Shown in pieces: positions 45,452 through 56,322 of a DNA stretch of 64,000 bases. The notes under the pieces were generated by a model. The model was not told where the DNA came from. It saw only the letters and a list, made by a program, of their open reading frames with translations, and did not search any database. How positions within the stretch are numbered: position 1 is the first letter of the stretch; each line of letters opens with the position of its first letter. The translations under genes and the position numbers were made by a program. The stretch is taken from the sequence record OR437326.1. One strand, given 5' to 3'. The DNA is from Escherichia phage iGC_PHA_EC001.

Positions 45452-45485
45452 GAAAAGGAGCCATTTGGCTCCTTTCTTTTATAAA
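45451..45485. terminator. bidirectional intrinsic terminator between convergent modules
   Basis: AAAGGAGCC-ATTT-GGCTCCTTT flanked by A-run upstream and T-run downstream. Confidence 0.7.
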
Positions 45486-45507: not shown

Positions 45508-46395
45508 TCAGAACGGAATATCATCGTCGAAGTCCATTGGAGGTTCTTCTTGATTACTTGGAGTTGGTTCTGGTTGTGGTTCAGGCTTCTTAACTTCTTT
45601 CTTCTCTTCTTTCTTAGGTTGTTCTACGGAACCACGAATGGCAGCAGCAACTTTATCAGACAGAGCCAGAACTTTACGAGCAGAGTCAATCAGATCTTCT
45701 ACAGATACAGTTTTAATGGTATGGTCTTTACAAGCATTGAGAATAGCGTGACCAACAGATGCCCCAAGATCATAATCATTAATATCAACGCCACGAGATT
45801 CAGCAATTTCAGATTTCAGCGTGACAGTTGCAGATTGAACAACCCCAGCGATATCGAAAGCATCGCCTTTAACACCATTACGAATCAGTTCCAGTGCACC
45901 ATTTACTGCGTGACCAGTTTCCAGACCTACAGTATCACGTTTTTTATAGGACTGCTTAGGAGCAGCATCGTTGGAACCTTTATTGCCAGAAGATTTGTTA
46001 GACTTCTGAACACCATCGGTAGACAATACTGTAATACGAGATTTTTTAGTATTGTAGTAAGTCTTACCGCCTTTATTATCAACGCGATCAATATCAATAC
46101 TTACTTCTACACCTTTTTCAATAGTGATCCAATTATCACCTTCTTTGACTTGCAGGTTTTCATAACCTTCTTTCAGTTCAATGTCACCAAGAGAAATCCA
46201 AACACCTTTCTCATCTGGTTTAGCACCTTTCTCTTTCAGAACAAGAGAAGCTCGGTGAGTTGAAACAATCGTTTTTCCTTCCCAATGAAAAGTTTTAGGT
46301 TCAGCGAATTTATCCAGTTTAACGTAGTCTACGATACCAGTTGCATAAGTTACGGTTTTGCCTTTACGATCAGTTTCAGTATTAATTACGGACAT
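45508..46395 (-). CDS. single-stranded DNA-binding protein with E. coli SSB-type C-terminal tip
   Basis: C-terminus ...PSNQEEPPMDFDDDIPF is almost identical to the E. coli SSB tail; N-terminal beta-rich region consistent with an OB fold. Confidence 0.6.
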   Translation of the reverse strand: MSVINTETDRKGKTVTYATGIVDYVKLDKFAEPKTFHWEGKTIVSTHRASLVLKEKGAKPDEKGVWISLGDIELKEGYENLQVKEGDNWITIEKGVEVSIDIDRVDNKGGKTYYNTKKSRITVLSTDGVQKSNKSSGNKGSNDAAPKQSYKKRDTVGLETGHAVNGALELIRNGVKGDAFDIAGVVQSATVTLKSEIAESRGVDINDYDLGASVGHAILNACKDHTIKTVSVEDLIDSARKVLALSDKVAAAIRGSVEQPKKEEKKEVKKPEPQPEPTPSNQEEPPMDFDDDIPF

Positions 46396-46411: not shown

Positions 46412-46804
46412 TTACATTAATTTTGCACAGAAAGAGCGGAGTCTTTCCATATCATCTTGCTCTAACAGGTATTTACCTTTACCTATTCCAACTCCAATTT
46501 CACCATTAGGAAAATGAACTATTTGCACTGGGAAACCTCCGAGTTTAATTGTGGCAGCTTTGCCTTCTTCGTCTATAACGTTTCGGATTGTATCTTGCAG
46601 TGAAATGAATTCTTTGTTTGTAACAGTGGTTTCAATTATTTCAGATGTTCCAACACGAGCGGTTAGCTTCTTGTCGCCACCTTGAATAACCAAAATTTGA
46701 AAATAAAAAGAGTTGTCAAGACCTACAACATTTTTCTCAACTAGTGTCAAACTGGTGTAGTTTCCATAAACAGTTTCAACAGCTATCTTAGAACGTTCAG
46801 TCAT
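46412..46804 (-). CDS. hypothetical protein (130 aa)
   Basis: ORF track; TTGACA-like -35 upstream on minus strand. Confidence 0.4.
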   Translation of the reverse strand: MTERSKIAVETVYGNYTSLTLVEKNVVGLDNSFYFQILVIQGGDKKLTARVGTSEIIETTVTNKEFISLQDTIRNVIDEEGKAATIKLGGFPVQIVHFPNGEIGVGIGKGKYLLEQDDMERLRSFCAKLM

Positions 46805-46849: not shown

Positions 46850-47443
46850 TTACCAAGGAATATCATCTTCTTCCAATCGGGTATCTACTTGAGGTGGACG
46901 TGGAACCTTAACCTCTTTCACAAAACGAAGATACGGGAAACGTGTAGCAATTTTAATAACGTGTTTGGCATCTTCTCTAACATCTTTGTGCAAGAAGCAG
47001 ATCCCTGTTTCCAAAGTTGTTTCAAAATCTTTAGAGTAATAACAATCCTTTCCATCAAATGCAGCCTGGCAGATGGACAGATCAAACTCATTTAGAAAGG
47101 TTGTCATTACGCTTGGTTCCATAATCATAAGGTTGCAAAGCTGACCATCACGTTCAAACTCAAAAACGTGTTTAAGACCAGTAACACCTTCATAATTGTC
47201 AGAAGCCTCTTTGTTTCCTAGTTTACGAATATTGGTTCCCATTAAAGCAGATGCAATTAATCCTTGTATTTGTTCTTCAGTCCGATGTGCAGGAAGGGAC
47301 GTATAGAAATCCAGATCACGTCCAGCAATATCAAGAATACGCCAATCACGAACAGCACCGCCAGCCAAGACAGAATTAGGATCAGCGATCTTTAATACGG
47401 TAAGAATTTCTTTGGCAATATTGATTTGTTTTGATTTAGTCAT
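46850..47443 (-). CDS. Pol-beta-superfamily nucleotidyltransferase (CCA-adding-enzyme head-domain-like) with acidic ...EEDDIPW tip
   Basis: Motif VLAGGAVRDWRILDIAGRDLDFYT matches GGxVRD...DxD of tRNA nucleotidyltransferase/poly(A) polymerase heads; only 197 aa. Confidence 0.45.
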   Translation of the reverse strand: MTKSKQINIAKEILTVLKIADPNSVLAGGAVRDWRILDIAGRDLDFYTSLPAHRTEEQIQGLIASALMGTNIRKLGNKEASDNYEGVTGLKHVFEFERDGQLCNLMIMEPSVMTTFLNEFDLSICQAAFDGKDCYYSKDFETTLETGICFLHKDVREDAKHVIKIATRFPYLRFVKEVKVPRPPQVDTRLEEDDIPW

Positions 47444-47654
47444 TGATACGCTCCACAGTTACTTTTACAACATCGTCCATATTAATCTCATCCCCCAAGA
47501 CCTCAATAACACCTTCCTCATAAAGTCGAGCACATTCTTCCCACACTTCAGCTTCCGTCATTCCACCTGCAATCTTATTTGCAAGACCTTTAATAACATC
47601 TTCATTTTGTTCATCAACAAGAATTGAAACATTAAAGCTCACTAATTTACGCAT
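47436..47654 (-). CDS. hypothetical acidic protein (72 aa)
   Basis: ORF track; AAGGAG upstream. Confidence 0.35.
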   Translation of the reverse strand: MRKLVSFNVSILVDEQNEDVIKGLANKIAGGMTEAEVWEECARLYEEGVIEVLGDEINMDDVVKVTVERIND

Positions 47655-47832: not shown

Positions 47833-48044
47833 TAATCTTCCTCCAGATCAATTTCATTATAACAATGTATACAGAAACCATCATTGTGCATATGTTGTTC
47901 ATAAGACATATCTTTACCACAAGACCAACAACGGATATCCCCATCGTCCCATTCACGTTCTTCTTCGCCTTCAAATTCATCTGGTAGGTAAGGCATACCA
48001 AAATAATCTAAATCGTAACTCATATCTTCTCCTACCGAGTCCAC
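47832..48044 (-). CDS. small zinc-ribbon protein (70 aa)
   Basis: CWSC ... CIHC Cys4 pattern; acidic. Confidence 0.35.
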   Translation of the reverse strand: MDSVGEDMSYDLDYFGMPYLPDEFEGEEEREWDDGDIRCWSCGKDMSYEQHMHNDGFCIHCYNEIDLEED

Positions 48045-48622
48045 TCCTTACGTTGTTCAATATGTTCAAGCATATCGTTATACAATGTTTTAAGATGTGG
48101 AACAACTCTTTGATCTTCTGTTTCAAAAAACTTTGTAAGCTGTTCTGCTTTAGCTTTCAACCAACAAAGATGTGCCTCAAGTTCAGTATCAAAACGTCCG
48201 AGCGTTATAATACGACCATCTACTTTTATATGGGCTTTATATTTCTTACGATCTTTTTCGTAATAGAAGCCTACCATAGTGCCATGAGATCTTTTACTTA
48301 CCCTGTAAGCTAAAAACTTGTTAAGATCCCCTGTTACTAAAAGGCAGGTGGCGGGAGAGTAAACTCTCCCTCCTATGATATCTTTATCGAGTTCTAAGTT
48401 TTCCCAGTTATCCCAAGTTTTCAACCAAGTATAGAAGTTGGAAAACAGTTTCCATTCTTCACAGACCGTCACTCCATGATAACAAGGATCACGTTCTTGT
48501 TGGCAAGGGGAGTAACATCTCCCCAACATAGCCATCCATTTCATATAAGCAGGATGAGTTCCATGTTTATCCTTCACCACAATATGTCCATCGAAAACAC
48601 CAACACCATATACTGTTCGCAT
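48032..48622 (-). CDS. AP2-domain DNA-binding protein, homing-endonuclease-like
   Basis: C-terminal segment GFYYEKDRKKYKAHIKVDGRIITLGRFDTELEAHLCW fits the AP2 fold signature; N-terminal W..M..RC...Y.GV.VC..W motif common in phage HNH/AP2 proteins; lies next to the intein-containing polymerase. Confidence 0.45.
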   Translation of the reverse strand: MRTVYGVGVFDGHIVVKDKHGTHPAYMKWMAMLGRCYSPCQQERDPCYHGVTVCEEWKLFSNFYTWLKTWDNWENLELDKDIIGGRVYSPATCLLVTGDLNKFLAYRVSKRSHGTMVGFYYEKDRKKYKAHIKVDGRIITLGRFDTELEAHLCWLKAKAEQLTKFFETEDQRVVPHLKTLYNDMLEHIEQRKEWTR

Positions 48623-48648: not shown

Positions 48649-51600
48649 TCAATGACATGTGGCCCAAGAGTTACCCACATCATATCCGGCAGTAAGCTGA
48701 ACGTTAAGATTGTAAAATTCTCCAGCCTTAGTAACAGCTAAAGCAGCAAGTTCTCCTGCCCGACTATAAGCTGTAAACCATCCACCTTTGGGAGATTCAT
48801 GAATGTTAGCCCAAATTTGTCCCGTTTCTTTTTCCTTATTATGCTTCCATTCTTCAACTTTAGCAAGGCATTCTTTATCAATTTTCTTTTGTTCTTCGGG
48901 ATCGTCTACTTTCTTCCAACCTAATGATTCAGGTGAAAACCATTTAAATTCTACAAGGTTACGAGAAACTTCAAGCTGGGCTTCATCGTGATATGCAATC
49001 ATTTGTTGCACGAAATCTTTATTCTTCCAGTCATCTTTAAAGAAGTCAACACTTAGTCCTTCTTCTTCGATCATGTCGTCATAAATAACCATTGCACGTT
49101 TAGCACAGATAACCCCACCACTTTGGAACAGAGAGTTAAGAATCGCGTGAGCAGAACGAGTAGGAACCTTACGACCGTCAATACCCAAAACATATTGTTT
49201 ACCAGTCTTAACCCAAAAATCGTTTAAACGTTCTTTAAGACGCGCCAATGGGAATGCAGCTTCCCAGAAAGCATCAAACACCAATTGACCTGTAAACTTA
49301 TCGCTACCAATTGTTTTAGCAACCTTGTCGGCTTGTGCACCATAGGTAATACCATACTTAACAGATTTAGCAGGACTACGTTCAAATTTACGTCCAATAG
49401 TTTCAGTAATACGTTTTGCCATCATTGTGTGAACATCATTAGGTTTCTCTAACAACAGAGCGTTACAATACTCGTGTGGCTCCGGCTCGTACCGCCAACA
49501 GTTTCCTGTGATGGTAATGCAGTCTTTCTGACGCATGACCCACGTACCAAGTTCTGTTTGTGGACACCAAACATCCTCTACACCCCACTCTTCAATAGTC
49601 AAACTTTGAACAGGAATGTGAGAGCGGTTAGTCAATGTTGCCACTTTTACTTTCTGCTCTTTTGTATTGAAAGCTACAGAGATATTGCCTCCATGCACCA
49701 GGTACGAGGCAGTTAAAGCTGCTTCAAAAAGTTCACCTGGGTTCTGCGCCCAACGCCAAACAGGTTTTTGTTTATGTTCGTGCCAGTAACCATCTGCAAT
49801 CAAGAAACCTTCCAAGAAAGCTACACGCTCGGCATGAGACATATTAACTACACGTTCTACCCACGGAACATCCCATTTACCTTGTTGAACAGAAGTTAAA
49901 CTATTTACCTGATCTTGTTCCATGTTAAATGGAGCATTACAAATAATGTTATCTCCTGTGCAAAGCTCGGCAGTTGTTCTGACTTTAGGCACATAAGTAT
50001 TCCCTTTACTACGGGTATTAACATACCAACGGTGATCTGCTGTTGCACGGTAAGTGTGTGATTTCCCTTTAATCTCAAACGTCTTACTATTTTTATAGAA
50101 GACCTTACCTTTTACTTTAGTCCATTCTTTCAGACCTGTTTCAGCATTGTACCCTAAAATCTCATCCCCTTCCTTCAGGTCGTGATATCCTACCCAACCT
50201 TTACGAGTCAAAGCTTGAGCATCCATCGGCACACAGTAGTGTGATTCAATTTTTGCTTCCAAAGAGTCGAAGTCGTAGCCGATCTGGAAGTATTTAGGAA
50301 CCTCTACACCAAACAAGTTACGCATCTCCCACCCAAACAAAGATGTGACACGAGGAATATTAGCTACAGATCTATGCTTCATACGAGAGGTTGCAGCATC
50401 ACATGTAGCGGCTGGGGTAGGAATACGCCCATCCGCCCTTACTGCGGCTAAGAAACCTTTATCGTATTCTTGATCTTCTTCATCTTCTTCCCAATCAGCA
50501 CCGCCACCTAAAATAGAGTTCCTACGATGCTTATACGTTAAGTATTCTACAATCTGTGTAGCATAAGGAAACTTCTCACTCAAAGCTTGCAGGTTAGGAC
50601 AAATTTCTTTTTCCTGACCTTTGGTAAAACACGGGTTAGTCAATACTTTAAGACCGCGACCTTTACCTTTTGCTATACGCTCTTGAATCTTCCTTTCCAG
50701 GGTTTCCGGTGTGCACTCCAGATGATCACAACGATCCTGACAAAAATTAGAAGATAGAGTTTGCTCAACGTAAGCTCGGATACCTTTCTGAAGTTCTTCC
50801 TCGCTCTTTTTAATCTTGGTGCCAGATTTAAGAGTCAAGTCTTTATCTTTATATTCAGACGGTACCCAACCTAATCCTACAAGCCAGTTTTTAATATGGG
50901 TTGTATCGTTTAATGTTGCAGGAATGTTAGGATCACATAGAGGTTCATCTGCTGCAACTGGCAGTTTCCACTCTTTCCCCAACATAACTAACCACCAATC
51001 GCCATCCCTCTCTTCCAAATGACCATCATGTTTCTTAGCAAAATTGATCATATGGTTAGTTGGCTCTAAGTTCTTTTTAATTTGCAACTTAGGTGGAATA
51101 AAAGCCTTAAGATAACCTTTTGTTGCTGGTTTAGGTGGCAAAATAGGCTCAACGAGTAAACGAAGACGCTCCATTTCTGCATCCAAAAAAGCAAGGTTCT
51201 CTTCTGCTTGTTTCATGTTAAAAGCAAACCCACGGTGTTCCTGGCGTGTAATAATGTCTGCTACACGTTGTTCAAGTTCAAATGGACCTTCCCATTTATC
51301 ATAATCACCCCATTCTTCCATAAGGTAATTATATACACTTGTATTGGCTTTGTTGTCATAGATACAGTAATAAAGCATATCCGCAGCAAAAGTCTTAAAT
51401 CGATCTTCTTCTGGAATCTCTTTACGGAAATCTATTTTTACATCACCACCTGCTTTTCGAGAAAGTGCTGCCAAACTATGTCCTGATTTGCCCTCAATCT
51501 TTCGATCTGGGTTTAACACTTTACTCAAAATCAAGGAGTCAATAAGTTTTACCTTATTTTTGCCCCACGTATTATATTTAACACTGTAATCTAATCCATA

Positions 51601-51981
51601 AAACAGTTTTGTAGCCAACCAGTCGTAGTTGATACCGTTGTGAGCCACAGCCATTTCAACCAGATATTCAGGCTTGTCTTTAAAATAACCTTCATGATTA
51701 ATAAAATCTGGGAAATCTTTTAGTTGAAAATGTGTGTAATCTTGCGCCACATACTCTTTAAGAACATATGTGTATTTACCATCTGACTCTTCATAAGGAC
51801 GCCCATCAAAGATGTATTTAGGGCCATCGTGGAAAGCTACTATTTCTCCTGTTTCATGGTTCTCTAAGACAATACAGTGCATTTGAAATGTGTCTTTGAG
51901 ACGATAAGGACTAGCTAAATAATCAATAGTGTCATTATTCAACAATCCGTTTGCTTCAATATCCCATGTAAACTTACTCAC
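48649..51981 (-). CDS. family A (T7-like) DNA polymerase with 3'-5' exonuclease domain, precursor containing an intein
   Basis: N-terminal DIEANGL (Exo I); motif A DFDSLEAKI; after the insert KSVKYGITYGAQADKVAKTIG (motif B region); C-terminal GIDGRKVPTRSAHAILNSLFQSGG and ...GNSWATCH match T7 gene 5 polymerase pattern; GTG start. Confidence 0.85.
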   Translation of the reverse strand: MSKFTWDIEANGLLNNDTIDYLASPYRLKDTFQMHCIVLENHETGEIVAFHDGPKYIFDGRPYEESDGKYTYVLKEYVAQDYTHFQLKDFPDFINHEGYFKDKPEYLVEMAVAHNGINYDWLATKLFYGLDYSVKYNTWGKNKVKLIDSLILSKVLNPDRKIEGKSGHSLAALSRKAGGDVKIDFRKEIPEEDRFKTFAADMLYYCIYDNKANTSVYNYLMEEWGDYDKWEGPFELEQRVADIITRQEHRGFAFNMKQAEENLAFLDAEMERLRLLVEPILPPKPATKGYLKAFIPPKLQIKKNLEPTNHMINFAKKHDGHLEERDGDWWLVMLGKEWKLPVAADEPLCDPNIPATLNDTTHIKNWLVGLGWVPSEYKDKDLTLKSGTKIKKSEEELQKGIRAYVEQTLSSNFCQDRCDHLECTPETLERKIQERIAKGKGRGLKVLTNPCFTKGQEKEICPNLQALSEKFPYATQIVEYLTYKHRRNSILGGGADWEEDEEDQEYDKGFLAAVRADGRIPTPAATCDAATSRMKHRSVANIPRVTSLFGWEMRNLFGVEVPKYFQIGYDFDSLEAKIESHYCVPMDAQALTRKGWVGYHDLKEGDEILGYNAETGLKEWTKVKGKVFYKNSKTFEIKGKSHTYRATADHRWYVNTRSKGNTYVPKVRTTAELCTGDNIICNAPFNMEQDQVNSLTSVQQGKWDVPWVERVVNMSHAERVAFLEGFLIADGYWHEHKQKPVWRWAQNPGELFEAALTASYLVHGGNISVAFNTKEQKVKVATLTNRSHIPVQSLTIEEWGVEDVWCPQTELGTWVMRQKDCITITGNCWRYEPEPHEYCNALLLEKPNDVHTMMAKRITETIGRKFERSPAKSVKYGITYGAQADKVAKTIGSDKFTGQLVFDAFWEAAFPLARLKERLNDFWVKTGKQYVLGIDGRKVPTRSAHAILNSLFQSGGVICAKRAMVIYDDMIEEEGLSVDFFKDDWKNKDFVQQMIAYHDEAQLEVSRNLVEFKWFSPESLGWKKVDDPEEQKKIDKECLAKVEEWKHNKEKETGQIWANIHESPKGGWFTAYSRAGELAALAVTKAGEFYNLNVQLTAGYDVGNSWATCH
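49501..50235 (-). mobile_element. intein (245 aa) after polymerase motif A, with LAGLIDADG-like motif
   Basis: Begins Cys (CVPMDAQALT), block-B-like TADH, LAGLIDADG-like LEGFLIADGY, ends ...ITITGN followed by Cys +1; excision brings motif A next to the conserved downstream palm sequence. Confidence 0.65.
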
Positions 51982-53308: not shown

Positions 53309-55087
53309 TTAATAGTTGCTATCCGTAGGCAAATTAGCAGGATTGTTGAAATACTGCTCTTTGTCATGCAGAGTTGCAGTTCTAATGTCATAGTAAAACT
53401 GCCCTGCCGGACCAGTTTCCGAGAACTCACGGTTTTTTAGGATAAAGCAATGAGTCGTATTGCGTTCTACAGGGTCTTCAGCGGCTTTATCTCGTTCCAA
53501 AGCTAAGGTAATACCAGCACCTTTAGCCAAGAAACTACTACCCATTGCATCGTCCTCTGTTAAGTGTTCATTGCCACCATTAGCCGATTTCTTAACGTGC
53601 GAGATGACGATAATAGTTATAGCATACTCTTTCATGATGCGCTTCAACCATGTTGCTAACTCTTCCTGGGCTTGAACATCCATACCAGAAAGCAAATCAG
53701 AATAAGGGTCGATAACAAGAATTGTTACTCCAAAATAGATGATCATCTCCAAAACTTTTTCTTTGATAGACTCCACATCTGCTCCACGATCATCACACAC
53801 ATAAAAACGTGGTGATCCATCTTCTCTTTCGTAAAAATCTAGGATTTTTTCTTTATTCTCTTCCAAGATTTGAAATTTCTCTTCCGGTGTTTTCCTGTGT
53901 AGAGGAATATGCAGGAACGAGGACAACAGGTTACGAGAATATTTCTTATAAGTTGCTTCCAAGGACAGAATACCTAGGGTATGTTCTGGGTGCGCAACAA
54001 TAATATGTTTGGTGATCTCGTTCACCATCAAAGTTTTACCGATACTGGTCTTTGCCAGGATGACTGTAATCTCTTCCTCTACTAAACCACCACCCAGCAT
54101 ATTTGCAGCAACACGCATAAAAGGAGGCAAGGTAATCATCTTGGATTCCAAGCATTCTAATGCAGCTTCATACAAGACATTAGAAGCATAAACACCTGCT
54201 GGGGTGTATAGACGAGCACTCCAAAAAGCTTTTACGAAATCTTTTGCACGACCTTCTTCCAGATACTGATTGGCATCCTTAAGATCCATCTGCATACGGT
54301 AGACTTTGTTACGAGGTAGCACCTTAACAATATTTTCAAATGCCTCATTACCTGCTTTGTCATTATCCATGCAAACAATAATCTTCTTAAATTTTTCAAA
54401 GAAAGGATATTGTGCCTGAACTTGTTTATACATACTGGTTTCACCAGTTGTGCCACTAACTACTGCTGGAAGTTCATATTTGTTGTCCAAGTTTTCAGAC
54501 AGCATTTGATAAGCTGCCAGAGCATCGTGTTCACCACCTGTAATTACCACAGTATGAGAACGGTCTGCAAAACGAATTTGTCCAAAAAGATCTACATCTT
54601 TACCTACTTGACCAATAGGTTTACTGAAATCTTTAGGATGAATACGACGCTTAAAACCAACCAATTCTTTACCGATGGTAGTTGGATATAAACAACTTTC
54701 TACTACCATCTGATCCCCTTCCTGACGGTATTCATAACGCACACCATAGAAAGATGAAACTTTTTCTTTAATGCCTCGATAACCACGTGGGTTGGTTGAT
54801 GTTTCTTGAACAATTTTACGATGAATCTGTTTATTAAATTCCGAACCCACAATCTCCTCCTCTTCTTCTAAAACTTCACCATTTTCTCGTAACCATTCTA
54901 CGCTAGGAATAGTGTATTCACACGCAAAGCACTTAGCACCTTTATGCTCTCCATTAGAATCTAATCCATAAACCATCAGGTTATTACGAGAGCGATCCTT
55001 GCCATTTTTCATGCAGCGCGGACAACCTGTATGCCCTTCCTTGCTAAGATCAACATCAAATCCATATTTAGTTATAATGTGCGACAC
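53309..55087 (-). CDS. primase-helicase (T7 gp4-like: zinc-binding domain, TOPRIM primase, DnaB-family helicase)
   Basis: N-terminal CPRC...CFAC zinc motif; TOPRIM acidic motifs (VVITGGEHDA; CMDNDKAGNEA); Walker A AKTSIGKT and Walker B VLVIDPYSD; GTG start with AGGAGA upstream. Confidence 0.8.
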   Translation of the reverse strand: MSHIITKYGFDVDLSKEGHTGCPRCMKNGKDRSRNNLMVYGLDSNGEHKGAKCFACEYTIPSVEWLRENGEVLEEEEEIVGSEFNKQIHRKIVQETSTNPRGYRGIKEKVSSFYGVRYEYRQEGDQMVVESCLYPTTIGKELVGFKRRIHPKDFSKPIGQVGKDVDLFGQIRFADRSHTVVITGGEHDALAAYQMLSENLDNKYELPAVVSGTTGETSMYKQVQAQYPFFEKFKKIIVCMDNDKAGNEAFENIVKVLPRNKVYRMQMDLKDANQYLEEGRAKDFVKAFWSARLYTPAGVYASNVLYEAALECLESKMITLPPFMRVAANMLGGGLVEEEITVILAKTSIGKTLMVNEITKHIIVAHPEHTLGILSLEATYKKYSRNLLSSFLHIPLHRKTPEEKFQILEENKEKILDFYEREDGSPRFYVCDDRGADVESIKEKVLEMIIYFGVTILVIDPYSDLLSGMDVQAQEELATWLKRIMKEYAITIIVISHVKKSANGGNEHLTEDDAMGSSFLAKGAGITLALERDKAAEDPVERNTTHCFILKNREFSETGPAGQFYYDIRTATLHDKEQYFNNPANLPTDSNY

Positions 55088-55099
55088 TTTGTTCTCCTG

Positions 55100-55378
55100 T
55101 TAAAATGGTTCGTTAGTCTCCATCATATATTCTGCTTCTAGTTCTTCCATATGCTTTCTAAATTGGAAAGCAATTTCTGCTACAGTTACATTTAAATCTT
55201 TTTCAAAAACTTCTGTAGAGCCTTCATAAAAACGAATACCGTCAATTAAAAGCCCTCCGTGGTAATCCCAATCACTTTCACGAGAAAGCGGGTTAGGCTC
55301 TTCATAATAGTAATCCACCTCCACAACTAAGGCTTTCCCGTTACGAGTGGTGTATTCAAAATCAAAAGTGTTAATCAT
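55100..55378 (-). CDS. hypothetical acidic protein (92 aa)
   Basis: ORF track; ATGA-type overlap with upstream gene. Confidence 0.4.
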   Translation of the reverse strand: MINTFDFEYTTRNGKALVVEVDYYYEEPNPLSRESDWDYHGGLLIDGIRFYEGSTEVFEKDLNVTVAEIAFQFRKHMEELEAEYMMETNEPF

Positions 55379-56322
55379 TATAGCTCCTCAAATAAAAGTC
55401 TACGACGCTCATTCAACACATCAATGTGATAATGAGTCCTGACATACTTAGCTAATGCTAATCCTTTCTCCATGCAAACATCGGGAGCACTTAATAAGTA
55501 TTCCGTAATATCTTTCCACTCGGAAGGTGTTTCAGCAAAGAATAACAAATCTTTAAACTCTTGTGGATGATAATTCTCACGAGGAGAACAGATCAAAGGT
55601 AAACCCTTAGCACCTGCCTCAAGAATTTTAAGATTGCTTTTTGCATTATTAAACACGTTATCAATCAATGGCGCAAGACTGATTTGATGACCATCGTAAG
55701 ATTCCATGTAGTTGGCATATGGTCTTACACCTTCATAAACACAAGTTGGTGCTACATTTTCTCTGATCACAGACCATTCACGACTACTTAAAACTTCAGA
55801 ATCCCTACGAAAACCACATATTGTAAGATCTTTACCAAAATCGGGCAAGATAGCCAAATCTTGTTTATGTGTTTCACTTCCAGCCCAGACTAATGGAGTT
55901 TTGGAGTAGCGATCACGGGTCAACACAAATTGACCTTCATCGTAAGGAAGTCCATTAGGGATTATGTGCACATTATCATTGTATTGTGAAAGTTCAACTT
56001 GCAAAGCAGGTGTCGTAGTTGTAACAAGATCGCTGTGCTCTAAAAACCATTTTAAATGTTCACGAATACCTGATTCAAAAATACCTTCTAGCATGTGTCC
56101 TTTTGGAATAACTAAAGAGTCATCCAAATCCATAACCATTTTAAAACCTAGGTTTTTAAGGGCTAAAAAGCCCTCTTTACCTTTTGTTGGCACCCCGTTA
56201 AAAACGAAAACGTTGTGTTTAGGTTGTGAAGAGAACTGCCTTGAGTAAGGCAGCACTACCCTATGGAAATCGCAGACACTATAATTGATTCCGTTACGAT
56301 TGTCAAGAATTATTTGTCCCAT
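55378..56322 (-). CDS. glycosyltransferase-like protein (GT-B-like), paralogue of 56330..57277
   Basis: C-terminal NAKSNLKILEAGAKGLPLICS resembles the GT-B nucleotide-sugar-binding motif; clear paralogy with the next gene. Confidence 0.45.
   Translation of the reverse strand: MGQIILDNRNGINYSVCDFHRVVLPYSRQFSSQPKHNVFVFNGVPTKGKEGFLALKNLGFKMVMDLDDSLVIPKGHMLEGIFESGIREHLKWFLEHSDLVTTTTPALQVELSQYNDNVHIIPNGLPYDEGQFVLTRDRYSKTPLVWAGSETHKQDLAILPDFGKDLTICGFRRDSEVLSSREWSVIRENVAPTCVYEGVRPYANYMESYDGHQISLAPLIDNVFNNAKSNLKILEAGAKGLPLICSPRENYHPQEFKDLLFFAETPSEWKDITEYLLSAPDVCMEKGLALAKYVRTHYHIDVLNERRRLLFEEL

What the first reader, a model, noticed from the sequence alone, without database searches (positions are those of the whole stretch)
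46850..47443. Minimal CCA-adding-enzyme-like nucleotidyltransferase in a phage with a large tRNA set
The GGAVRD...DxD head motif is that of tRNA nucleotidyltransferases, but the protein is only 197 aa and lacks the usual body/tail domains. With at least 11 phage tRNAs nearby, it could repair or mature tRNA 3' ends, for example countering host CCA-trimming or anticodon-nuclease defences, or tag other RNAs.
Basis: partly seen in the sequence, partly recalled or inferred. Interest (0 to 1): 0.5.

Follow-up and report, generated by a model that had tools for sequence, protein, structure and literature searches.

The report
Stand-alone phage CCA-like nucleotidyltransferase core
This phage gene encodes a small enzyme built from just the catalytic core of the tRNA CCA-adding / poly(A) polymerase family; it belongs to a large phage-only family that sits with DNA-replication genes rather than tRNA genes, so it is probably not an ordinary tRNA-repair enzyme, and its substrate is unknown.

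Summary

About 1,047 cluster representatives form a family of roughly 175-220 aa proteins that is essentially phage-only. Across 47 lineages the gene lies within five genes of a DNA polymerase (27) or primase/helicase (20), and 33 of 40 loci have no tRNA within 10 kb. One member sits in a 47-kb phage with no tRNA genes. All 11 tRNAs in the window already encode CCA and lie 41 kb away. Genuine phage CCA enzymes are full-length (347-450 aa).

In this clade the protein ends in ...EEDDIPW, resembling the SSB C-terminal tip (...DFDDDIPF) carried by a gene two ORFs downstream.

Moderate interest.

The parts
46850..47443 (-). CDS of the 197-aa stand-alone class-II-like nucleotidyltransferase (stop codon 46850-46852)
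47342..47362 (-). Motif A, first part: G28-G29-A-V-R32-D33-W34 (NTP-binding turn and helix)
   Evidence: G28, G29 and W34 are invariant, and R32 and D33 are >90% conserved in 122 family members. Aligned to the class-II GGxVRD by hmmsearch and hhalign.
47309..47317 (-). Motif A, second part: D43-L-D45, the two metal-binding carboxylates
   Evidence: Both Asp are invariant in the family and align to the class-II DxD.
47066..47086 (-). Residues 120-126 (FDLSICQ): the position of class-II motif B (RRDxTIN), with both arginines lost
   Evidence: Relaxed hhalign register. Family columns: F120 84%, S123 76%, I124 68%, C125 75%. This part of the alignment has low confidence.
46934..46981 (-). Residues 155-170 (VREDAKHVIKIATRFP): helix equivalent to the first neck helix / motif D (EDPLRVLRVARF) of class-II enzymes
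   Evidence: Comparison with the A3 consensus. In the family only Y155 (68%), H/Y161 (96%), K164 (97%), K/R168 (84%), F169 and P170 are conserved.
46853..46876 (-). Flexible acidic C-terminal tail L-E-E-D-D-I-P-W, resembling the SSB C-terminal tip
   Evidence: Low pLDDT (60-76) and no secondary structure. Conserved only in Phapecoctavirus-like lineages. Only 2 of 594 frames of >=40 aa in the window end in DDIP[FW].
47436..47654 (-). 72-aa ORF (phrog_25475, unknown function) whose stop overlaps the NTase start by 8 nt, suggesting translational coupling
46412..46804 (-). 130-aa ORF (phrog_16560, unknown function), always immediately downstream of the NTase in Stephanstirmvirinae-like phages
   Evidence: position +1 in 9 loci, 5 lineages.
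45508..46395 (-). 295-aa ORF (phrog_4477) ending ...PPMDFDDDIPF, identical over 11 residues to the E. coli SSB C-terminal tip; a probable replisome or ssDNA-binding protein
48649..51981 (-). Family-A DNA polymerase (with an inserted segment) in the same minus-strand operon upstream of the NTase
53309..55087 (-). Primase/helicase, same strand, upstream in the replication module
45453..45476 (.). Bidirectional intrinsic-terminator-like hairpin that closes the minus-strand replication operon
   Evidence: phAPEC8 annotates a terminator at the equivalent place.

Best explanation
The ORF encodes a catalytically competent, stand-alone nucleotidyltransferase core that descends from the class-II CCA-adding / poly(A) polymerase lineage. 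It consists of the head domain plus the first neck helix. Motifs B and D are remodelled, and the tRNA-binding body and tail are absent. It belongs to a large family found essentially only in phages, whose genes travel with the DNA-replication module and not with tRNA genes. The most likely mechanism is two-metal transfer of a nucleoside monophosphate from an NTP (or dNTP, since the RRD ribose sensor is lost) onto the 3'-OH of a single-stranded nucleic-acid end, without a template. D43 and D45 would hold the metals, and the GG-R32-D33 turn together with K164 and H161 would hold the nucleotide. The substrate is not selected by the tRNA-measuring body and tail. In Phapecoctaviruses the flexible acidic C-terminal ...EEDDIPW peptide mimics the SSB tip carried by host SSB and by the phage protein two genes downstream. 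It is inferred to dock the enzyme on SSB-tip-binding partners at replication intermediates. So this is a replication-module 3'-end tailing enzyme, not a canonical tRNA CCA-adding enzyme. Shown here: the fold, the conserved catalytic residues, the family's size and phage restriction, the synteny, and the tail similarity. Inferred: catalytic activity, the nature of the acceptor, and the role of the tail.
Against: No biochemical data exist for any member of this family. All characterised class-II relatives act on RNA 3' ends (tRNA or mRNA), not DNA, so a replication-linked acceptor is an inference from gene position only. Phage 'early/DNA metabolism' regions also hold unrelated genes, and full-length phage Cca genes also sit next to DNA-metabolism genes, for example DNA ligase in phiEa21-4. 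The SSB-tip-like tail occurs only in two closely related lineages and ends in Trp, not Phe. Most family members have no such tail, so it cannot explain the family's general function. The protein is acidic (pI 5.3), which is not typical of an extended nucleic-acid-binding surface. The third catalytic carboxylate is uncertain: E95 is acidic in only 69% of members, and position 104, which aligns with the third carboxylate proposed for Gp22, is Gln or Asn.
Confidence: 0.4

Rival explanations
1. One reading: a minimal CCA-adding or CCA-repair enzyme that restores the 3' ends of phage or host tRNAs, for example after CCA trimming or defence-nuclease attack.
For: The nearest relatives by fold and sequence are tRNA CCA-adding enzymes. 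The window protein itself retains an 'EDAKH...K...RF' stretch resembling motif D, EDxxR..R..RF. The phage carries 11 tRNAs. phAPEC8 has no full-length Cca of its own. Host tRNAs are a common defence target (general knowledge; jumbo-phage review PMC7824862).
Against: No body or tail domain to bind the tRNA elbow. The RRD motif B is lost and the E/D of motif D is not conserved in the family. All 11 phage tRNAs encode CCA. The gene is 41 kb from the tRNAs and in the replication operon. 33 of 40 homolog loci have no tRNA within 10 kb, and a homolog exists in a phage with no tRNAs. Phages that encode CCA enzymes keep the full 347-450 aa architecture, in 423 records. The host already has Cca. Scores are below the Pfam and NCBIfam cut-offs.
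Confidence: 0.22
2. A host-takeover RNA-tailing enzyme or toxin. It would add nucleotides to host RNA 3' ends, either poly(A)-polymerase-like tailing that promotes RNA decay and nucleotide recycling, or MenT-like extension of tRNA acceptor ends that blocks translation.
Against: Gp22 is only marginally related: 13 bits, with motif A the only part confidently aligned. Toxicity on overexpression is non-specific. There are no Pfam or PADLOC hits to MenT/AbiEii-type toxins. The RNA-binding C-terminal region of PAP I is absent. Nothing in the sequence points to a particular host RNA.
Confidence: 0.2
3. The enzyme acts on something other than a nucleic-acid end. It might make or destroy a nucleotide second messenger (counter-defence), or nucleotidylylate a protein, for example a host SSB client or a replisome component.
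Confidence: 0.12
4. A catalytically dead remnant that serves only as a structural or adaptor protein in the replisome.
For: The third carboxylate is not strictly conserved. Motifs B and D are degenerate. The tail suggests protein-protein docking.
Against: G28, G29, D43 and D45 are invariant, and R32, D33 and K164 are near-invariant, across about 25-35% identical sequences. This pattern is typical of active enzymes.
Confidence: 0.06

Closest known systems
Class-II CCA-adding enzymes and bacterial poly(A) polymerase I (PF01743 head; e.g. E. coli Cca, E. coli PcnB 3aql, B. stearothermophilus 1miv, T. maritima 3h37, A. aeolicus 4wby/3wfo)
   Different: 197 aa versus roughly 350-470 aa. There is no neck beyond the first helix and no body, tail or HD domain. 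Motif B RRD is replaced by x-F-[DPS]. The ED and R of motif D are not conserved (H/Y161 and K164 instead). An invariant Trp follows the RD. Scores are below the Pfam and NCBIfam cut-offs. The family is phage-only and linked to the replication module.
Genuine phage-encoded CCA tRNA nucleotidyltransferases (e.g. Cronobacter phage CR3 gp201, Aeromonas phage Aeh1p308, Erwinia phage phiEa21-4 gp79, Sinorhizobium phage phiM19 gp268)
   Same: Phage-encoded and from the same superfamily lineage.
   Different: They are 40-57% identical to the E. coli Cca head+neck, 347-450 aa long, and keep motifs A-D invariant. The window protein cannot be detected with Cca by tblastn.
PDB 2la3, S. pneumoniae NP_344798.1: a 191-aa stand-alone 'CCA-adding enzyme head domain' protein of unknown function
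   Different: No detectable sequence similarity: it is absent from the profile-vs-PDB hits at E<=10. It is bacterial, not phage, and its function is also unknown.
Klebsiella phage fHe-Kpn01 Gp22 and similar small NTases of T7-like podoviruses (PMC7291057)
   Same: About 180 aa, with GG at residue 29-30 and DxD at 44-46, and class-II-like by HHpred. The gene lies directly after the DNA polymerase gene. The same small fold is found in many podophage proteins in BFVD.
   Different: A separate family: only 13 bits against our profile, with hhalign aligning motif A alone. Gp22 keeps a more CCA-like motif A and a candidate Asp third carboxylate. Its toxicity in E. coli has not been tested for the window protein.
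C-terminal tip of bacterial SSB (E. coli ...MDFDDDIPF) and the acidic, aromatic-ended tails of T7 gp2.5 and gp4 (the latter from my own knowledge)
   Same: The NTase ends in a disordered acidic peptide ...LEEDDIPW, sharing D-D-I-P-aromatic-COOH with the SSB tip. A gene two ORFs downstream carries the exact host tip.
   Different: Trp instead of Phe at the C-terminus and a shorter acidic run. It is present only in Phapecoctavirus-like lineages. Binding to any partner is untested.
RlaP (RNA-ligase-associated Pol-beta NTase) and MenT/AbiEii NTase toxins
   Different: No RNA ligase is annotated in phAPEC8. There are no Pfam or PADLOC hits to these families, and structural scores are lower than for class II.

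Membership tests
Pol-beta nucleotidyltransferase superfamily | hG[GS] turn followed by [DE]h[DE]h on the next strand, within the alpha-beta-alpha-beta core fold | tested here: met
Pol-beta nucleotidyltransferase superfamily | Third catalytic carboxylate (h[DE]h) on a neighbouring strand | tested here: inconclusive
   E95 is E 58%, D 11%, N 16%. Position 104, which aligns with the third carboxylate proposed for Gp22, is Q 82% / N 14%.
Class-II CCA-adding enzyme / poly(A) polymerase (PF01743) | Motif A: GGxVRD, 8-9 residues, DxD | tested here: met
   GGAVRD-WRILDIAGR-DLD. hhalign vs a class-II profile gives 86.6%, E 4.5e-6 over 39 columns. hmmsearch vs PDB puts CCA enzymes on top.
Class-II CCA-adding enzyme / poly(A) polymerase (PF01743) | Score above the curated family threshold (Pfam gathering 23 bits; NCBIfam CCA equivalog 438.8 bits) | tested here: not met
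   Pfam 13.9 bits, E 0.07. NCBIfam TIGR02692 12.6 bits. Only 17 of 122 members reach E<0.01.
Class-II CCA-adding enzyme / poly(A) polymerase (PF01743) | Motif B: RRD (ribose 2'-OH sensing), followed by T-I-N | tested here: not met
   The equivalent segment is E-F-D-L-S-I-C (family x-F-[DPS]-x-S-I-C), with no arginines. The alignment register has low confidence.
Class-II CCA-adding enzyme / poly(A) polymerase (PF01743) | Motif D: EDxxR (base-templating pocket) on the first neck helix | tested here: inconclusive
   The window protein has E157-D158-A-K-H161..K164 (R replaced by H). In the family E/D are not conserved, while H/Y161 (96%) and K164 (97%) are.
Class-II CCA-adding enzyme / poly(A) polymerase (PF01743) | Neck, body and tail domains that bind the tRNA (PF12627 and C-terminal region) | tested here: not met
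   The protein ends about 30 residues after the first neck helix. The family is 175-220 aa, versus 347-450 aa for genuine viral enzymes and up to 465 aa for E. coli PcnB.
Class-II CCA-adding enzyme / poly(A) polymerase (PF01743) | Head-domain fold closest to class II among all Pol-beta families | tested here: met
Class-II CCA-adding enzyme / poly(A) polymerase (PF01743) | Template-independent addition of C, C, A (or poly(A)) to an RNA 3' end | not testable with these tools
   Needs an enzyme assay.
PHROG 10174 / 1614 'nucleotidyltransferase' (phage protein families) | Significant profile match | tested here: met
   E 6.5e-63 and 5e-11. The PHROG label is an annotation, not a tested function.
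RlaP (RNA-ligase-associated Pol-beta NTase) | Co-occurrence with an RNA ligase, plus a profile match | tested here: not met
   No RNA ligase is annotated in phAPEC8 and there is no Pfam hit. Absence of an RNA ligase rests on the annotation only.
MenT / AbiEii / CD-NTase (defence or toxin NTases) | Profile match to PADLOC or Pfam models | tested here: not met
SSB C-terminal-tip motif | Disordered acidic tail ending D-D-D-I-P-F-COOH that binds SSB-client pockets | tested here: inconclusive
   The tail is ...L-E-E-D-D-I-P-W with low pLDDT. The sequence resemblance is shown, but binding is not testable here.

The most novel reading that the evidence does not exclude
The enzyme is a replisome-tethered, template-independent nucleotidyltransferase. 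It uses a mimic of the SSB C-terminal tip to dock on SSB-client sites or phage replisome proteins, and it modifies RNA-primer or DNA 3' ends during phage replication, or competes with host SSB for its partners. That would make this phage-only family of about 1,000 clusters a previously unrecognised replication accessory function derived from the tRNA CCA-adding enzyme.
Probability: 0.15. Interest if true: 0.75.

Novelty: new variant of a known kind. Interest (0 to 1): 0.4.

Why it matters
If the family really acts at replication intermediates, it would show that the catalytic core of the CCA-adding / poly(A) polymerase lineage has been re-used by phages for a job outside tRNA maturation. It would also add a widespread, uncharacterised enzyme to the phage replication module, and it would give a second case, next to the neighbouring SSB-tip protein, of a phage protein borrowing the host SSB docking peptide. 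If the enzyme instead repairs tRNA ends with only a head domain, it would be the smallest known CCA-type enzyme, of interest for how substrate and nucleotide specificity are achieved without the neck, body and tail. On a practical level, the current GenBank label 'tRNA nucleotidyl transferase / poly(A) polymerase' overstates what is known; 'class-II-like nucleotidyltransferase, substrate unknown' would be more accurate.

Tried and rejected
- Single-sequence searches against the PDB gave only chance hits.
- The first AlphaFold model, from 11 close homologs, was poor (pLDDT 65), and its Foldseek search could not separate TdT/Pol mu, class-II CCA, TM1012 and MenT. It was replaced by a model from the 122-sequence alignment.
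- KP34 was tested as a proxy for fHe-Kpn01 Gp22 and holds no homolog. Gp22 itself is only a marginal relative, so its toxicity cannot simply be transferred to this protein.
- A homolog search seeded with the E. coli Cca head returned only orthologs of >=78% identity in the listed rows, which was useless for a diverse profile. The class-II profile was built from phage and viral enzymes instead.
- Domain fusions in 10 longer family members gave no informative Pfam domain.
- PADLOC gave no defence or toxin similarity.
- No full-length Cca lies within 10 kb of any of 85 homolog loci, and none is found in phAPEC8.
- The 295-aa and 130-aa neighbours have no solved relatives beyond the SSB tail, so '295-aa protein = SSB' remains an inference.
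- Promoter-like sites are no more frequent than in shuffled sequence, so no promoter claim is made beyond agreement with the phAPEC8 annotation.
- The tail codons share only 11 nt with the neighbour's tip, too short to decide between copying and convergence.
- Literature searches found no experimental work on this family, and source names are uninformative.
- A default hhalign run would have suggested that motif D is simply absent. A relaxed alignment and column counts show the helix is retained but remodelled, so that statement was softened.

Full report
**1. Observation.** The window holds an ATG-initiated ORF on the minus strand at 46850..47443 encoding 197 aa. The sequence reads ...LAGGAVRDWRILDIAGRDLDFYT..., with GG at residues 28-29, RD at 32-33 and DLD at 43-45. 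ARAGORN finds 10 tRNA genes at 3902-5819. Rfam finds an eleventh at 4600-4684, which corresponds to the tRNA-Tyr annotated in phAPEC8. Two qualifications apply. The tRNA cluster is 41 kb away on the other strand, so it is not 'nearby'. And all eleven tRNA genes already encode their 3'-terminal CCA, so a CCA-adding activity is not needed to mature them.

**2. What the window is and what is already annotated.** The region is 95-100% identical to about 64 Phapecoctavirus genomes, which are phAPEC8-like E. coli myoviruses of about 150 kb in the Stephanstirmvirinae. In phAPEC8 (JX561091) and many relatives this gene is already annotated 'putative tRNA nucleotidyl transferase / poly(A) polymerase', or simply 'nucleotidyltransferase'. 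I found no experimental work on the protein or its family.

**3. Classification.**
- Against curated libraries the protein is only a sub-threshold match to the class-II head domain. Pfam PolyA_pol gives 13.9 bits against a cut-off of 23, covering residues 26-65. The NCBIfam CCA equivalog gives 12.6 bits against 438.8. It matches PHROG 10174 and 1614, both labelled 'nucleotidyltransferase'.
- An exhaustive profile search of 1.84 billion representatives found 1,047 proteins at E<=1e-3 and 334 at E<=1e-10. Almost all are 175-220 aa and align over query residues 1-177. The small size is thus a conserved property of a large family, not a truncation.
- In a 122-member alignment (about 25-35% identity to the query), G28, G29, W34, D43 and D45 are invariant. 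Q6, A10, A27, A30, R32, D33, Y84 and K164 are at least 90% conserved.
- The gene differs from phAPEC8 by 10 synonymous and 1 non-synonymous codon changes.

**4. Structure.** With the 122-sequence alignment AlphaFold gives a confident model: pLDDT 93.2, pTM 0.85, with only the last roughly 20 residues at lower confidence.
- In the viral structure library, 126 proteins match at E<=1e-3. Many are phage proteins of 165-215 aa from T7-like podoviruses and other phages.

**5. Membership in the class-II family.** I built a class-II profile from E. coli Cca and PcnB, six viral enzymes and four enterobacterial Cca proteins. Motifs A (GGxVRD..DxD), B (RRDxTxN), C and D (EDPxRxxRxxRF) are invariant in it.
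- hhalign of the mini-NTase family against it gives 86.6% probability (E 4.5e-6), but confidently aligns only helix alpha1 plus motif A, 39 columns.
- With a relaxed threshold the alignment runs collinearly over about 170 columns at low confidence.
- In that register F120-D-L-S-I-C falls on R-R-D-L-T-I-N. The backbone of motif B is kept, but both arginines are lost.
- The helix at 155-170 falls on the motif-D helix. The window protein reads R-E-D-A-K-H-V-I-K-I-A-T-R-F against the class-II x-E-D-P-L-R-V-L-R-V-A-R-F. Across the family, however, the E/D are not conserved; only H/Y161, K164, K/R168, F169 and P170 are.
- The protein ends about 30 residues later.
- Summary: motif A and the head fold are met; the curated thresholds, motif B and the body/tail are not met; motif D is remodelled.
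- The position of the third catalytic carboxylate is uncertain. E95 is acidic in 69% of members, and position 104 is Q or N.
- I therefore do not file the protein as a CCA-adding enzyme. I file it as a distinct, reduced offshoot of that lineage: head plus first neck helix.

**6. Contrast with genuine phage CCA enzymes.** tblastn with the E. coli Cca head+neck finds 423 phage records with proteins 40-57% identical. They are full-length (347-450 aa in the examples fetched) and retain all motifs. phAPEC8 has no such gene, and Cca does not detect the mini-NTase by BLAST. None of 85 homolog loci has a full-length Cca within 10 kb.

**7. Genomic context.**
- In the window the gene lies in a minus-strand operon. 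The order is primase/helicase (53309-55087), a 143-aa ORF, a Dam-like methyltransferase, DNA polymerase (48649-51981), an HNH endonuclease, three small ORFs, the NTase, a 130-aa ORF, and a 295-aa ORF.
- The last small ORF overlaps the NTase start by 8 nt.
- The operon ends at a strong bidirectional terminator at 45453-45476. No convincing terminator separates the polymerase gene from the NTase.
- The same order is seen in phi92-like phages and Klebsiella phage FKP3, which are only about 36% identical. In a 47-kb Zobellviridae Vibrio phage the homolog overlaps the end of a 5'-3' exonuclease gene.
- In 73 viral loci, making 47 lineages at 70% identity, the neighbours within +-5 genes on the same strand are a family-A DNA polymerase in 23 lineages (plus 4 with a second polymerase cluster), a primase/helicase in 20, HNH endonucleases in 13 and an exonuclease in 7. 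For genomes of 60-250 genes this is far above the roughly 4-17% expected for a random gene.
- By contrast, 33 of 40 loci have no tRNA gene within 10 kb and only one has a large tRNA cluster. Vibrio phage 1.253.O carries a homolog and has no tRNA genes.
- A scan of one genome from each of 185,579 bacterial and archaeal species found only five matches. All are on MAG contigs, and at least two look like phage contigs. The family is therefore essentially phage-specific.

**8. The C-terminal tail.** The window protein ends ...RLEEDDIPW.
- The 295-aa ORF two genes downstream ends ...PSNQEEPPMDFDDDIPF, and E. coli SSB ends ...PSNEPPMDFDDDIPF, so the last 11 residues are identical.
- Of 594 reading frames of >=40 aa in the window, only these two end in DDIP[FW].
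- The NTase tail has low model confidence and no secondary structure, as expected for a flexible docking peptide.
- The exact tip on the 295-aa protein family is conserved across Stephanstirmvirinae-like lineages. The DDIPW tip on the NTase is limited to the two Phapecoctavirus-like lineages. Sister lineages end in other acidic tails with hydrophobic termini (NEEFKI, DAWDDDKI, SPDVFNF, EFMDEI), and most of the wider family has none.
- From established knowledge, the SSB tip recruits many genome-maintenance proteins, and T7 gp2.5 and gp4 use acidic, aromatic-ended tails to bind the polymerase. The resemblance therefore suggests, but does not show, that the NTase is tethered to replisome or SSB-client proteins in this clade.

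**9. Related experimental hint.** Gp22 of Klebsiella podophage fHe-Kpn01 is 182 aa, has GG at residue 29-30 and DxD at 44-46, and matches class-II CCA enzymes in HHpred at 99.8%. It is toxic when expressed in E. coli (PMC7291057). Its gene directly follows the DNA polymerase gene. It is only marginally related to the present family: 13 bits, with motif A the only part aligned by hhalign. It is therefore a parallel example, not a proxy.

**10. Interpretation.**
- Best supported: an active, stand-alone class-II-derived NTase core of a phage-only family that belongs functionally to the replication and DNA-metabolism module. It would transfer nucleotides to a 3'-OH without a template. Loss of the RRD ribose sensor and of the tRNA-binding domains argues that the acceptor, and possibly the nucleotide, differs from those of CCA enzymes. 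I put about 0.8 on the classification and about 0.4 on the replication-linked 3'-end tailing mechanism as stated.
- None can be excluded without enzyme assays.

**11. Novelty and interest.** The gene and its superficial annotation are known, and the fold assignment is ordinary. Several points go beyond the annotation. The family is large, phage-restricted and uniformly minimal. It lacks the CCA-specific motifs. It is syntenic with the replisome rather than with tRNAs. In this clade it carries an SSB-tip-like tail next to a gene that carries the exact host SSB tip. That makes it a new variant of a known kind, of moderate interest (0.4). Its value would be considerably higher if the replisome-tethering reading proved correct.

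Noticed in passing
window 45508-46395 (-): The 295-aa ORF (phrog_4477, 'unknown function') ends ...PSNQEEPPMDFDDDIPF. Its last 11 residues are identical to the C-terminal tip of E. coli SSB. No OB-fold or SSB domain is detectable by Pfam or PDB sequence search. The tip is conserved in Stephanstirmvirinae-like loci (L006-L008, L012-L016, FKP3). It is probably a phage ssDNA-binding or replisome protein that hijacks the host SSB interactome.
   Followed up: partly
window 48649-51981 (-): The DNA polymerase is 1110 aa, versus about 865 aa in phAPEC8. PHROG polymerase profiles match residues 2-585 and 844-1110, leaving an inserted segment of about 260 aa that contains a LAGLIDADG-like stretch (FLEGFLIADGY). 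This is probably an intein. phi92-like PD06 has a similarly long polymerase gene.
   Followed up: partly
window 48032-48622 (-): An HNH homing-endonuclease gene (phrog_953, E 7.6e-75) lies between the DNA polymerase and the small ORFs. It is absent at this position in phAPEC8 but present in SF1-1, EF1-1 and nieznany, so it is a mobile insertion polymorphism. HNH genes are also common neighbours of the NTase elsewhere (13 of 47 lineages).
   Followed up: partly
window 4600-4684 (+): An eleventh tRNA is detected by Rfam (39 bits) but missed by ARAGORN. It corresponds in position to the tRNA-Tyr annotated in phAPEC8. The last tRNA-Met (5741-5819) is flagged as a pseudo-tRNA in phAPEC8.
   Followed up: partly
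window 46412-46804 (-): The 130-aa ORF (phrog_16560, unknown function) is always found directly between the NTase and the SSB-tip protein in Stephanstirmvirinae-like phages (9 loci, 5 lineages). It has a conserved C-terminus ...R(E/S)FC(A/V)K(L/V/T)M and no detectable homolog of known structure.
   Followed up: partly
window 55378-56322 (-); L097 37131-40409 (phAPEC8): A glycosyltransferase-like gene (phrog_7162) sits at the head of the replication operon. Outside the window, phAPEC8 encodes a complete dTDP-rhamnose pathway (RmlA-D). Together they hint at sugar modification of DNA or of the cell surface.
   Followed up: no
L087 4894-5442 (Klebsiella phage fHe-Kpn01 gp22): A second, only marginally related family of class-II-like NTases of about 180 aa occupies the same position, directly after and overlapping the DNA polymerase gene, in a T7-like podovirus. 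It is experimentally toxic in E. coli (PMC7291057). The closely related KP34 lacks it.
   Followed up: partly
L002 6026-6973 (Escherichia phage PD06): In this phi92-like genome the SSB-tip sequence QDFDDDIPF is internal and followed by 15 more residues (APIGLQYGRNFLHCF). This suggests a frameshift, a sequencing error or loss of the stop codon in that record.
   Followed up: no
L041 13155-20407: One viral contig (147.7 kb) has 17 tRNA genes 3-10 kb downstream of its mini-NTase. It is the only one of 40 loci with a large tRNA cluster near the gene, and the exception to the general lack of tRNA linkage.
   Followed up: no
L003 6096-8363 (Vibrio phage ICP1): The ICP1 homolog (ORF223) is truncated to the N-terminal ~127 residues of the family. 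It lies a few genes upstream of ribose-phosphate pyrophosphokinase and nicotinamide phosphoribosyltransferase genes, an NAD-salvage or reconstitution module.
   Followed up: no
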